A stretch of DNA of 64,000 bases from Eledone cirrhosa (Eukaryota). The notes below the pieces were generated by a model. It searched no databases, was not told the DNA's origin, and saw nothing but the letters and a program-made list of their open reading frames with translations. Of the stretch, positions 33,787 to 63,336 are shown piece after piece. Made by a program: the position numbers and the translations under genes. Location of the stretch: positions 4,588,001 to 4,652,000 of the forward strand of contig OZ024746.1 of NCBI GenBank assembly GCA_964016885.1, written 5' to 3'. Position 1 is the stretch's first letter; every line of letters begins with the position of its first letter.

Positions 33787-34160
<374 letters not shown>

Positions 34161-34165
34161 ATATC

Positions 34166-34206
<41 letters not shown>

Positions 34207-34343: not shown

Positions 34344-34989
34344 TGCATTCATTACGTACGGCTGCATAAATATCAGCATGTGACCATGTTATACATATAT
34401 ATATATATGAGAGAGAGAAATGCGACATATATGTGTGTGTATGCGTATGTATTTATATATATATATGTGTGTGTGAGTGTATGCGTGTGTTTTTTCACTC
34501 ATATGCTTTGGTGTTTGTGAACATTAAGAAAATTTCATTTTCATTTAAATTGTTCTAAAGAGAACAAAGGACAAAAGGAAATGTAGGTTTTTATGGAGAT
34601 ATACAATGATAATGTGTCTATGGCGTCTGGTATCGATGACATCTCTGTGGCGCAGCATATGTTGGATAATTGTTATATACTCATATGGTTTGTGTATGGC
34701 GGAGAGAGAGAATATGTTTGTGTGCATGTGTGTGTGTGTGCATGCGCACATTTATATGTATGTGTGTGTGGTTATGAGTGTGTATCCATATGTGAAACAC
34801 GAAATACAGACAACTGCAATATAAAGTATTTTTATTAACACTTCTTTTGTATTTTGTACACATTTCTCTCTTCCTCTATCTCTCTCTCTCTCTCTCCACA
34901 ACTTCAATGGACCTGTTATTTTTATCTAAAGACATTTTTTTCCAATTCCATCCCGCCCGTCCCCTCGATCTATCTTATTTCTCATTCTT

Positions 34990-35025
34990 TCTTCTGATGA
35001 AGGACTAGCGTCCGAAACGTTAAGA
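34990..35025 (+). ncRNA. minimal type I hammerhead ribozyme
   Basis: TCTT CTGATGA A GGAC TAGC GTCC GAAA CG TT AAGA: stem I TCTT/AAGA, stem II GGAC/GTCC, stem III ACGT; predicted cut after 35021. Confidence 0.8.
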
Positions 35026-35112
35026 CCCTCTTCCTGCTATATCAAGCGTTAACCTAATATATCCCTTCCATATACTGTACCGAATGCGTTGTTATTTCTG
35101 TTTACCTTTTAC

Positions 35113-35298
<186 letters not shown>

Positions 35299-37098: not shown

Positions 37099-37193
<95 letters not shown>

Positions 37194-37371
37194 AAATACG
37201 TTCCTTCACGCACAAGGCGCCAAGGTACGCATGTATTGTCCAACCAAATGCCAGTGTGGTTCAATGGCGGGTTAATAAATTAACGAGCCAGAACAAATAT
37301 AAACAAGGTTTAGTAAATAATGAAAAAGTTTCAAAATAAATTTTAAAAAATTGACTTTACCTACTATAGTT

Positions 37372-37455
37372 ACCTTTACCGATCGGTTTCGAATCCCAAA
37401 AATAAAACGGAGACCATACGGCCTTCGTTGCAAAGAAAGATTCTCGTCAGAAGGT
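37372..37455 (-). ncRNA. type I hammerhead ribozyme, fully canonical core
   Basis: ACCTT CTGACGA GAATC [43 nt] GATTC GAAA CCGATCGG TA AAGGT: 5-bp stem I, 5-7-bp stem II, palindromic stem III ACCGATCGGT, GUA cleavage triplet. Confidence 0.88.
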
Positions 37456-37793
37456 TCTTTTCATTCAAAGAATATAAAATTCCTGAATTTAAATCACAAA
37501 CTAGCGCTATCAAAACTGTTCCTGGGATGAGAGTGGATGATGTAGAACAGGTTTATCAAGGGCCGTAGCAAAGATAGAGGCAAAAGGAGGTAGGTCAAAC
37601 TAGCCACAGCTATTGCTAGCAGCAGTCAGAACGACCAAATTTGTTCTCAACGTTAGTGGAGGTAGTAGTAATAGGAAATATATATATTAGGTAAGTATGT
37701 TTTGAAACAGCGAGCGATATTAAAATAAAACCTTTCGCCGTATTTTTTACTTAAGAAATTTTAGCCTAATAGAAATAGAAAAAAGTTGAGTAT

Positions 37794-37864
37794 TGAAGTA
37801 CATGGGAGTCGAACCCACATCTTTGGTTATCCAGACCATTGTGCTACCATTACACTTACACATC
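37794..37864 (-). pseudogene. 71-nt tRNA-like cloverleaf (anticodon GGA) inside 26-bp inverted repeats
   Basis: GATGTGT AA GTGT AATGGTA GCAC A ATGGT CTGGATA ACCAA AGAT GTGGG TTCGACT CCCAT GTACTTC A; T5 run 9 nt downstream. Confidence 0.65.
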
Positions 37865-38056
37865 ACCCCTCGCTGTTTCAAAACATTCTTACCTGTCGTT
37901 ATACTTGCTAAGAATTTAGTTTCTAATTTGAATGGAAGGAGATGGGTGCTGTGTTGGTGTAATGATAGCATAAATGTATGTATGTGTGTACACATGTATA
38001 AGTGTGTGCATGTGCGTGTTTTTATATATGGATATATTCATATATATATATATATA

Positions 38057-38918
38057 TAATTACATAAACGGAGAAAGCTATTAGCGATACTCCGACCAAT
38101 TTCCAACTCACTCAACAAACATTAGGAAATACCGGAGTATATTCCCAATTAAACGTTTGGGGTGCTAACTATATTGTATTGTGTGGATAATTGGTTGTAT
38201 TATTTTATATGAGATATATTAAAGATCTCATTCCCCAAATGATCGTTTCATTATAAGATTTCTACATGGTGGGTGAAATTATACCAAGTTATGTAGAAGC
38301 TTGTGTAAGATCAATGGATTCTTATTCAAGTGAGCTCTTATAAATATTCAGTTGGTGCCCAAGTAATATTAATATTAATAACTAAATCAATATCAAAATT
38401 TAGCGATAATCACCATCAGTGCTAAAAAGATCTGTTAGGTTGTAAGTCCAGCAGTTCTAAAGAAAAATCTCACACTGTCCCGAAGATGGGAAGAGGAGGC
38501 TACCGTGAAAAAATAATATACACGCAGGTCATTGAACTCTAACAAGAATTGAAGCCTCGTGGATATGAACAAATAAATATGTGTGCACTGTTTAAGGACA
38601 CATAGAGATATTTTCTCAGGCAAAATAACAGACATGAGATACAAACAATCAATATTCATATTAAAAAAATAAACAAAGAGAGTCATACCTTATATCGGGA
38701 AAGTTCATATCTGGTAATCCAAGAGTATATTACATAATTACATAAACGGAGAAAGCTATTAGCGATACTCCGACCAATTTCCAACTCACTCAACAAACAT
38801 TAGGAAATACCGGAGTATATTCCCAATTAAACGTTTGGGGTGCTAACTATATTGTATTGTGTGGATAATTGGCTGTATTATTTTATATGAGATATATTAA
38901 AGATCTCATTCCTCAAAT
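38057..38918. repeat. 184-bp near-identical direct repeats (38057-38240, 38735-38918) around about 495 bp, between (TA)n tracts
   Basis: Directly visible, 2 mismatches seen. Confidence 0.9.
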
Positions 38919-39068
38919 ATATATATATATATATATGCAAAAGTTTTATTTAAAATTGTTGGGTTACAACGAGTAAATATTTTATAACTGATATAAAAGC
39001 ACTCAACAAGTTTTGGAGTATTTTACGATATTAAACAAATGGAAACTACATTTATAAAACCATATTTA

Positions 39069-39130
39069 TTTCATTATATATATTTCAGGGATATCATATT
39101 AAAAATATAGTATGCCCTCTTCAGACAAAA
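39069..39130 (-). ncRNA. type I hammerhead ribozyme (left arm of a 139-bp inverted repeat)
   Basis: TTTTGT CTGAAGA GGGCATACTATAT TTTTA ATATGATATCCCT GAAA TATATA TA ATGAAA. Confidence 0.72.
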
Positions 39131-39269
39131 TACAATATATAAACAGTTTTATAAATAAATTTGACATACCTTAAAACTTTACAACTTCCATTTAAAAAGT
39201 TGTTATGGTAGTGAAAATGTTAAGGACAGTTAGAAAGAAATTTATTTATAAAACTGTTTATATATTGTA

Positions 39270-39331
39270 TTTTGTCTGAAGAGGGCATACCATATTTTTA
39301 ATATGATATCCCTGAAATATATATAATGAAA
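39270..39331 (+). ncRNA. type I hammerhead ribozyme (right arm of the 139-bp inverted repeat)
   Basis: TTTTGT CTGAAGA GGGCATACCATAT TTTTA ATATGATATCCCT GAAA TATATA TA ATGAAA; stem III palindrome ATATATAT; predicted cut after 39325. Confidence 0.75.
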
Positions 39332-39373
39332 TAAATATGCTTTTATAAATGTAGTTTCCATTTGTTTAATATC

Positions 39374-39430
<57 letters not shown>

Positions 39431-58888: not shown

Positions 58889-58960
58889 CTCCCCGGCGGG
58901 GAATCGAACCCCGGTCTCCCGCGTGACAGGCGGGGATACTTACCACTATACTACCGAGGA
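58889..58960 (-). tRNA. trnD-GUC: tRNA-Asp (GTC)
   Basis: TCCTCGGTAGTATAGTGGTAAGTATCCCCGCCTGTCACGCGGGAGACCGGGGTTCGATTCCCCGCCGGGGAG, 72 nt, canonical eukaryotic Asp; oligo-T terminator downstream. Confidence 0.97.
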
Positions 58961-63264: not shown

Positions 63265-63336
63265 CTCCCCGGCGGGGAATCGAACCCCGGTCTCCCGCGT
63301 GACAGGCGGGGATACTTACCACTATACTACCGAGGA
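63265..63336 (-). tRNA. trnD-GUC: tRNA-Asp (GTC), identical to 58889-58960
   Basis: Same 72-nt sequence; T5 terminator about 9 nt downstream. Confidence 0.97.

What the first reader, a model, noticed from the sequence alone, without database searches (positions are those of the whole stretch)
37689..37894. tRNA-like cloverleaf (anticodon GGA) packaged between 26-bp inverted repeats, directly upstream of the HHR element
Seen: AGGTAAGTATGTTTTGAAACAGCGAG (37689-37714) and its inverse (37869-37894, 25/26 identical) enclose a 71-nt cloverleaf with A/B boxes and a T5 terminator. It lies on the same strand as, and about 100 bp upstream of, the HHR element, and each repeat begins with a perfect splice donor AG|GTAAG. 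Established: eukaryotes normally lack tRNA-Ser(GGA) and Ser tRNAs have a long variable arm (4 nt here), so this is not an ordinary tRNA. Inference: a mobile Pol III cassette (tRNA-carrying MITE or PLE pLTR) that might drive ribozyme-element transcription.
Basis: partly seen in the sequence, partly recalled or inferred. Interest (0 to 1): 0.7.

Follow-up and report, generated by a model that had tools for sequence, protein, structure and literature searches.

The report
Ribozyme-free tRNA passenger of Penelope retrotransposons
The supposed tRNA cassette is the middle of one back-to-back insertion of an abundant 257-base repeat that carries a tRNA look-alike and is likely pasted into TA microsatellites by Penelope-type retrotransposons; the ribozyme element next door is a separate, likely younger insertion that it probably does not drive.

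Summary
The cloverleaf (Rfam 47 bits) and the 25/26 inverted repeat are real, but there is no TIR cassette. The sequence belongs to a 257-bp (also ~270 and ~283-bp) tandem-unit repeat with at least 2,006 exact 20-mer hits in a 3-Gb genome. The insertion spans 37691-37970: two arms joined head to head at a 3-nt microhomology. The right 'repeat' is the start of the second arm, which runs 76 bp further into a second tRNA. Copies show the Penelope-like (PLE) signature: partial tandems, inverted 5'-truncated arms, (TA)n targets, and a tail at one end only (40 of 56 inverted copies), as do Neptune PLEs in this genome. There is no ribozyme. Linkage to the hammerhead element fails: 1 of 191 other sites has that family nearby, the neighbour is 99.8% identical to a sister copy versus 93% to consensus for the tRNA arm, and T6 follows the tRNA. 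The splice donor is a rare variant (6 of 158). 5' breaks pile up just 3' of tRNA A58 (34 of 122), suggesting m1A58. This scan noted the family earlier elsewhere in this genome, and analogues in a sea urchin.

The parts
37691..37871 (-). Main arm of the insertion: unit positions ~46-254 of the 257-bp tRNA-bearing repeat, ending at the 'tail' 3' end; carries internal deletions
   Evidence: L001 1503-1683; 167 of 180 aligned bases identical to consensus
37794..37864 (-). tRNA-like cloverleaf (unit 53-123): GGA in the anticodon position, pyrimidine at 37, intact B box and A58, A box with two substitutions in this copy
   Evidence: not called by ARAGORN
37779..37784 (-). T6 run (T5 in consensus), a candidate Pol III terminator and part of the 3' strand of the leader/trailer helix
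37869..37970 (+). Inverted second arm: unit 231-257 then 1-75 of the next unit; its first 26 bp are the 'right inverted repeat'
   Evidence: L001 1681-1782, 92% identity
37869..37871 (.). Head-to-head junction of the two arms, with a 3-nt overlap (microhomology)
   Evidence: arms overlap at L001 1681-1683
37948..37970 (+). 5' 23 nt of a second tRNA-like module, cut off in the D arm
37689..37714 (-). 'Left inverted repeat' = 3' tail of the main arm (unit ~231-256)
37681..37688 (.). Short (TA)n remnant between the tRNA repeat's 3' end and the HHR element's 5' end
   Evidence: sequence
37192..37680 (-). Neighbour, separate family: one 483-bp unit of a young hammerhead retrozyme ending in (TA)n
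   Evidence: 2,043 candidates; full-length hits 97-100%
37372..37455 (-). Type I hammerhead core of the neighbour (approximate limits); predicted cleavage after unit position 298
   Evidence: not matched by Rfam at gathering score

Best explanation
The feature is the centre of a single two-armed insertion of a 257-bp non-coding, tRNA-bearing tandem repeat that is likely copied by Penelope-like (probably Neptune-type) retrotransposon enzymes, and the 26-bp inverted repeat exists only because the second arm starts inside the tail sequence that ends the first. Shown: unit structure, copy abundance, tandem and inverted arms, tail at one end only, (TA)n flanks, no ribozyme match, independence from the HHR neighbour. 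Inferred mechanism: tandem copies are transcribed into multimeric (or circular) RNA, most likely from the A/B boxes of an upstream unit with read-through of the T5, as described for Schistosoma Sm-alpha. A PLE GIY-YIG endonuclease cuts a (TA)n run. Both ends prime cDNA at two fixed AT-rich sites of the unit (about 220 and about 257), and the two 5'-truncated cDNAs are joined head to head by short microhomology. The tRNA domain likely folds in the RNA and is likely methylated at A58, which often stops the RT. The HHR retrozyme likely landed later in the TA run at this copy's 3' end because both families use the same target.
For: Unit and arrays: 29 successive unit hits in one array; subfamily of ~283 bp. 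Abundance: 603 exact 37-mers and 2,006 exact 20-mers, reversed-pattern controls 0. Architecture: 27 of 51, 56 of 87 and 41 of 83 insertions are inverted. Tail+short ends occur in 20 of 27 and 40 of 56, same-class ends in 0 of 27 and 3 of 56. TA-rich flank at 60 of 78 3' ends vs 8.7% background. This matches the published PLE layout (PMC8557442, passages). In-genome controls: two autonomous Neptune-type inverted insertions each have one tailed and one short arm ending in (TA)n (L126, L136), and the HHR neighbour has ends at 378 vs 482-7. 18 of 126 arms run more than 40 nt into the next unit. 5' ends: 34 of 122 at unit 108-116 (A58 = 108) vs 1 of 122 at 98-107. One locus joins a 5'-truncated PLE arm head to head with a tRNA-unit arm at a 2-nt microhomology (L228).
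Against: No sequence shared with any sampled autonomous PLE (50 GIY-YIG loci and 11 other PLE loci; best hits 16-44 nt at E about 0.02 or worse), so the partner is not identified. The promoter step is weak: the T5 ten bases after the tRNA is present in all three subfamily references, and 5' ends at the expected start are not enriched in the sample not selected on the tRNA (8 of 122 at 43-58, p 0.44), only in the tRNA-selected one (15 of 143). The break hotspot peaks at 113-114, not 109, overlaps the T-stem, and could reflect structure plus microhomology. No excess of substitutions at A58 (3 of 226; sample partly selected for an intact A58). The second compound locus (L227) has two short outer ends and fits two events as well as one. 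The window's second arm ends at unit 75, an atypical end.
Confidence: 0.78

Rival explanations
1. Same PLE passenger, but the tRNA module is a processing signal that replaces the hammerhead: host RNase P / RNase Z cut a read-through multimer into unit-length RNAs.
For: The unit has no ribozyme match, yet its tRNA sits about 100 nt upstream of the short end, where the neighbour has its hammerhead (80 nt). The neighbour's 5' ends cluster at its cleavage site (11 of 39, p 1.4e-6), and 12 of 122 tRNA-unit 5' ends lie at 117-125, around the RNase Z site at 124 (p 8e-4 against uniform). The whole acceptor stem is kept, extended by a leader/trailer helix with a 3-nt bulge.
Against: No significant cluster at the RNase P site. 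The 117-125 cluster could be the shoulder of the A58 peak. The long helix may block processing. The predicted minimum-energy fold of the tRNA alone is not the cloverleaf (-16.3 vs -13.9 kcal/mol).
Confidence: 0.25
2. An ordinary LINE-dependent tRNA SINE (head 47-123, body to 257) whose tandems and inversions arose secondarily.
For: Several copies are single 47-257 monomers ending in (TA)n (L007, L008, L011, L014). A and B boxes are present.
Against: 49-64% of insertions are inverted (27 of 51, 56 of 87, 41 of 83), with the one-end tail rule. The arms are not the contiguous pieces expected from twin priming on one RNA. 18 of 126 arms cross into the next unit. No tRNA parent was found (best 48-49 identical positions over 71, to another repeat).
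Confidence: 0.08
3. One reading: a TIR-bounded Pol III cassette (MITE) that drives the downstream HHR element.
For: The 25/26 inverted repeat, the cloverleaf and same-strand adjacency in the window. One other HHR copy also abuts a tRNA unit (L043).
Against: Homology runs past the right repeat. 1 of 54 other matches has both repeats. HHR family near 1 of 191 other sites. T6 lies between the tRNA and the HHR element. Divergence differs.
Confidence: 0.03

Closest known systems
Animal non-LTR retrozymes (Cervera & de la Pena 2020, PMC7229834, passages; Li, Clavereau & Pollet 2026, 10.64898/2026.07.22.740005, part 1 of 5 plus term search)
   Same: Short non-coding tandem units in the 170-400 nt range, proposed to be non-autonomous PLE passengers
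   Different: No hammerhead; a full tRNA cloverleaf instead; no sequence link to a sampled PLE pLTR. The 2026 preprint has 0 occurrences of 'tRNA'.
PLE insertions and non-autonomous Chlamys elements such as MRC1 (Craig et al. 2021, PMC8557442, passages and supplement searches)
   Same: Partial tandems, inverted 5'-truncated copy, 30-40 bp tail at one end, (TA)n targets; HHR can be absent
   Different: MRC1-type elements generally share 3' sequence with an autonomous family, and none was found here. No tRNA module was seen in the passages read.
Schistosoma Sm-alpha / Sj-alpha (as reviewed in PMC6765202, passages)
   Same: SINE-like tandem units with a Pol III promoter, where the upstream unit transcribes the next
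   Different: Sm-alpha carries an active hammerhead; this unit has none, and has a T5 straight after the tRNA.
tRNA-derived SINEs (SINEBase definition, PMC3531059 section 4); octopus OK/OR1/OR2 SINEs (Ohshima & Okada 1994, seen only as a reference title)
   Same: Short, more than 100 copies, tRNA-like module with A and B boxes
   Different: Often tandem and inverted; tRNA internal to a permutable unit; no LINE partner.
Helenus TRIMs (Kojima 2024, PMC10886601, passages)
   Same: A tRNA-like sequence carried inside the repeat of a non-autonomous retroelement of a non-LINE class
   Different: Helenus has two LTRs, PBS, PPT and 4-5 bp TSDs; here the ends are variable, with no TSD visible.

Membership tests
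MITE / TIR DNA transposon | Terminal inverted repeats shared by copies and marking both ends | tested here: not met
   1 of 54 other matches spans both repeats; homology continues 76 bp beyond the right repeat
MITE / TIR DNA transposon | Fixed-length target site duplication | tested here: inconclusive
   Flanks are (TA)n at 60 of 78 3' ends; a TA duplication cannot be read there
Non-autonomous PLE derivative | Partial head-to-tail tandems with 5' truncation | tested here: met
   18 of 126 arms cross into the next unit
Non-autonomous PLE derivative | Inverted 5'-truncated copy, with a tail at one end only | tested here: met
   20 of 27 and 40 of 56 inverted copies are tail+short; same rule in Neptune L126, L136
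Non-autonomous PLE derivative | Microsatellite insertion bias | tested here: met
   60 of 78 vs 8.7% background
Non-autonomous PLE derivative | 3' sequence shared with an autonomous PLE | tested here: inconclusive
   None among 50 of 150 scored GIY-YIG loci (10,596 candidates) or 11 other PLE loci; Naiad and Hydra loci were not sampled
Non-autonomous PLE derivative | Mobilisation in trans by PLE RT/EN | not testable with these tools
   One suggestive chimera (L228) and one ambiguous (L227)
Non-LTR retrozyme | Type I hammerhead in each unit | tested here: not met
   No ribozyme hit inside units in 3 tandem loci at Rfam E up to 5; the core-motif scan of 125 sites found hits only in flanks by my reading
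tRNA SINE (SINEBase) | Interspersed, non-tandem, with a 5'-terminal tRNA head | tested here: not met
   Tandem and inverted copies are common, one array has 29 unit hits, and the tRNA lies at unit 53-123
tRNA SINE (SINEBase) | At least 60% identity to a cellular tRNA over 60 nt | tested here: inconclusive
   Best of 23 sequences: 48-49 identical positions over 71 with gaps, to another repeat-borne tRNA; only 63 of about 552,091 candidates were scored
tRNA SINE (SINEBase) | Pol III transcription and a LINE partner | not testable with these tools
   Needs RNA data and Pol III ChIP
Functional tRNA-Ser | Long variable arm and purine 37 (recalled textbook features) | tested here: not met
   4-nt variable region, T at 37, mismatch at the top of the anticodon stem (alignments)

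The most novel reading that the evidence does not exclude
A class of PLE parasites in which a host-recognised tRNA mimic replaces the hammerhead ribozyme. The cell methylates it at A58 and RNase P/Z cut the multimer. The genome's thousands of truncated copies would then be a fossil read-out of germline tRNA modification and processing on a transposon RNA, with a convergent example in sea urchin.
Probability: 0.25. Interest if true: 0.78.

Novelty: new variant of a known kind. Interest (0 to 1): 0.5.

Why it matters
The published non-autonomous PLE passengers that I found (retrozymes, MRC1) carry a hammerhead or share ends with their helper, and SINEs are defined as LINE-dependent. A tRNA-bearing, ribozyme-free unit with the PLE end signature would be a SINE-like partner of a different RT class. 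At 257 bp with thousands of insertions, it makes the undefined PLE integration mechanism (two priming sites, two cDNAs, head-to-head joining) and the role of the hammerhead directly testable. It also warns that GGA 'serine tRNAs' in this genome's annotation are repeats. The specific claim that prompted this finding (a TIR cassette driving a ribozyme element) is not supported, and the family was already noted several times by this scan.

Tried and rejected
TIR/MITE reading: rejected. Splice-donor function: rejected, minority variant in 6 of 158. Ribozyme in the unit: no Rfam hit. A GAAA-palindrome half-core is present by eye, but no matching first half or stem I. Search for the helper PLE by shared sequence: negative. 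Short motif look-ups in the Craig 2021 supplement gave only scattered 9-10-mers, including one on the opposite strand of octopus Naiad 3' regions, taken as chance. PF26215 is not in the library. tRNA parent: not found in the genome sample or in phages (3 hits of 25 nt, E 0.7). Sharp Pol III start at unit 47-53: suggested by best-scoring copies, not confirmed. m1A misincorporation, and an A-to-G editing excess over unit 76-140: not seen. L227 as proof of template switching: downgraded. Expression: no RNA holder listed. In one search, run X6 (type not on record) covered the HHR family but not the tRNA family at 95% likeness, which is not usable as evidence. Whole-unit folding is weak (z -2.1 sense, +0.7 antisense). 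Literature: searches found no description of a tRNA-bearing PLE passenger. The library lacks most subscription papers and Repbase/Dfam, and bioRxiv supplements are closed, so a prior annotation may exist.

Full report
1. Observation. The two 26-mers match at 25 of 26. Rfam finds a tRNA at 37864-37794 on the minus strand (47.1 bits); ARAGORN does not. The fold has GGA in the anticodon position, T at 37 and a 4-nt variable region, so it is not a decoding serine tRNA (textbook criteria, recalled). The run after the tRNA is T6. The hammerhead core is about 340 bp away; the HHR element's 5' end is about 114 bp away.

2. What the repeat is. The window lies in a 3.0-Gb genome. I treated it as an octopod by inference from its repeat content; no call names it. 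The 206-bp query gave 1,726 candidates (40 scored, 55 matches). Most matches stop at or before query position 183-186, and 1 of 54 non-self matches spans both repeats. Aligning 48 tRNA-containing pieces gave a 257-bp unit with the tRNA at 53-123. A ~283-bp subfamily and a ~269-bp form (one copy used as reference) also exist. Exact-pattern counts are 603 (37-mer) and 2,006 (20-mer), with reversed controls 0. One array has 29 successive unit hits. In unit terms the window insertion is a minus arm 46-254 (37871-37691) joined at a 3-nt overlap to a plus arm 231-257/1-75 (37869-37970). The inverted repeat is simply unit 231-256 occurring in both arms. The AG|GTAAG match is a variant found in 6 of 158 tails, the window's included.

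3. Architecture across the genome. Three samples were mapped: best-scoring hits (51 insertions); 79 sites taken in position order by the tRNA pattern (87 insertions); and 76 sites taken in position order by a pattern outside the tRNA (83 insertions). Duplicate loci of one site and pieces under 40-60 bp or at locus edges were dropped; the samples overlap at a few sites. Inverted insertions number 27, 56 and 41. One outer end lies at the tail (about 245-4) and the other about 35-60 nt earlier (190-236) in 20 of 27 and 40 of 56. Both ends are of one class in 0 of 27 and 3 of 56; the rest include an odd end, as does the window copy. 60 of 78 3' ends have TA-rich flanks against 8.7% background. The 83 of 143 is an undercount, because the longer subfamily's tail was scored as flank. 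Craig et al. (PMC8557442; passages; supplement searches) describe this layout for PLEs: partial tandems, an inverted 5'-truncated copy, a 30-40 bp tail at one end, and (TA)n targets. They also say cephalopod Naiads are long-inactive remnants. The genome has 10,596 GIY-YIG candidates. Where RT and EN were both seen in the 50 loci examined, EN is C-terminal; three translated ORFs carry the zinc-finger linker of Neptune type. Two such inverted insertions each have a tailed and a short arm ending in (TA)n, an in-genome control.

4. The HHR neighbour. It is a 483-bp unit family (2,043 candidates, full-length hits 97-100% identical) with the same two-ended layout. The window copy is 488 of 489 identical to a sister copy; the tRNA arm is 167 of 180 identical to consensus. 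The family is absent from the flanks of 125 tRNA sites and present about 900 bp from 1 of 66 more. 1 of 24 other HHR sites abuts a tRNA unit through a TA run, and Neptune 3' ends do likewise at L182 and L200. A shared target explains the adjacency, and T6 argues against read-through in this copy.

5. Who mobilises it. No shared sequence was found with 50 GIY-YIG loci or 11 loci of another PLE family. Among 427 ends scanned (133 non-TA; duplicates not removed), two abut PLE coding-region sequence directly. L228 joins a 5'-truncated PLE arm head to head with a tRNA-unit arm at a 2-nt microhomology, both outer ends in (TA)n, which fits one event. L227 joins a 2.5-kb Neptune arm to a unit tail without TA, but both outer ends are short and the tRNA part is complete on its own, so two events fit as well. 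PLE dependence therefore rests on architecture.

6. What the tRNA does. The consensus keeps 20 of 20 scored stem pairs, A and B boxes and A58, and sits on a 17-18-bp leader/trailer helix that includes the T5. 18 of 126 arms run into the next unit, so templates are multimeric or circular. Following a lead from earlier scan notes, I tested 5' breakpoints in the sample not selected on the tRNA. 34 of 122 fall at 108-116 (A58 = 108), 1 at 98-107, 12 at 117-125 and 8 at 43-58. Two ends on the third reference were left out, and five ends scored at 93 are fold-back artefacts that belong near 113 and were left uncorrected. m1A stalls RT, and TRMT6/61A acts on GUUCRA T-loop motifs (PMC6076376, passages), so an m1A58 stop followed by trimming to microhomology at 113-115 is the likeliest reading. 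Against it, the peak is 4-5 nt downstream of the expected stop and overlaps the T-stem, and A58 shows no excess substitutions (3 of 226). For the source of the RNA I put a Pol III promoter acting in tandem arrays, as reviewed for Sm-alpha (PMC6765202, passages), at about 0.5; a processing signal replacing the hammerhead at about 0.25; an inert passenger at about 0.25. The neighbour's 5' ends cluster at its cleavage site (11 of 39, from best-scoring hits), which is the pattern a processing role would predict at 53 or 124; only the 124 region shows a modest excess.

7. Comparison with what is known. It works like a non-LTR retrozyme or MRC1 but lacks a hammerhead. It is not a SINE by the SINEBase definition (PMC3531059, section 4), not a MITE, and not a Helenus TRIM (PMC10886601, passages). 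PMC7229834 (passages) and the 2026 preprint (part 1 of 5 and term search) link retrozymes to PLEs; I saw no tRNA-bearing unit in what I read. PMC13282606 (passages) lists mostly unclassified octopus SINEs. PMC8969392 and PMC3747384 were read as passages. Searches found no description, but Repbase/Dfam and the 1994 octopus SINE paper could not be checked. DNA contigs of four other coded organisms hold relatives, one (X4) with many strand-switch joints.

8. Verdict. The underlying family is a new variant of a known kind, already noted several times by this scan in this genome, with analogues in a sea urchin. Interest 0.5.

Noticed in passing
L243, L245-L253 (about 1190-2930 in oriented loci): A separate dispersed ~1.7-kb repeat family, 91-98% identical, starting with TC and a short hairpin next to TA runs (Helitron-like by recall), carrying an internal full tRNA cloverleaf, mostly with anticodon GGC.
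   Followed up: partly
window 58889-58960 and 63265-63336 (-): Two identical tRNA-Asp(GTC) genes, 60.4 bits, with unrelated flanks; they look like ordinary genes.
   Followed up: partly
window about 34000-34190 and 34956-35143 (+): 188-bp direct repeat with a minimal hammerhead (core at 34038) ending in (TA)n: the pLTR-like end of another PLE-type element; the PLE arm at L228 has a similar hammerhead 3' half.
   Followed up: partly
G000:C3:271498900-271506100 (L225/L226): Array of about 28 head-to-tail copies of the tRNA unit, 82-95% identical to consensus; a candidate source of multimeric RNA or a satellite in the making.
   Followed up: partly
L242, L244: Clusters of tandem tRNA-Thr(AGT/TGT)-like genes and variants on contig C1.
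   Followed up: no
window 39024-39162 / 39238-39376 and 38053-38240 / 38731-38918: A 139-bp 99% inverted pair and a 188-bp 98% direct pair beside the finding, both next to TA runs; probably further PLE-type insertions.
   Followed up: no
L121-L123: Long open Neptune-type ORFs (938, 844 and 1,096 codons stop to stop), with close relatives at 92-98% protein identity: recently active families and candidate helpers.
   Followed up: partly
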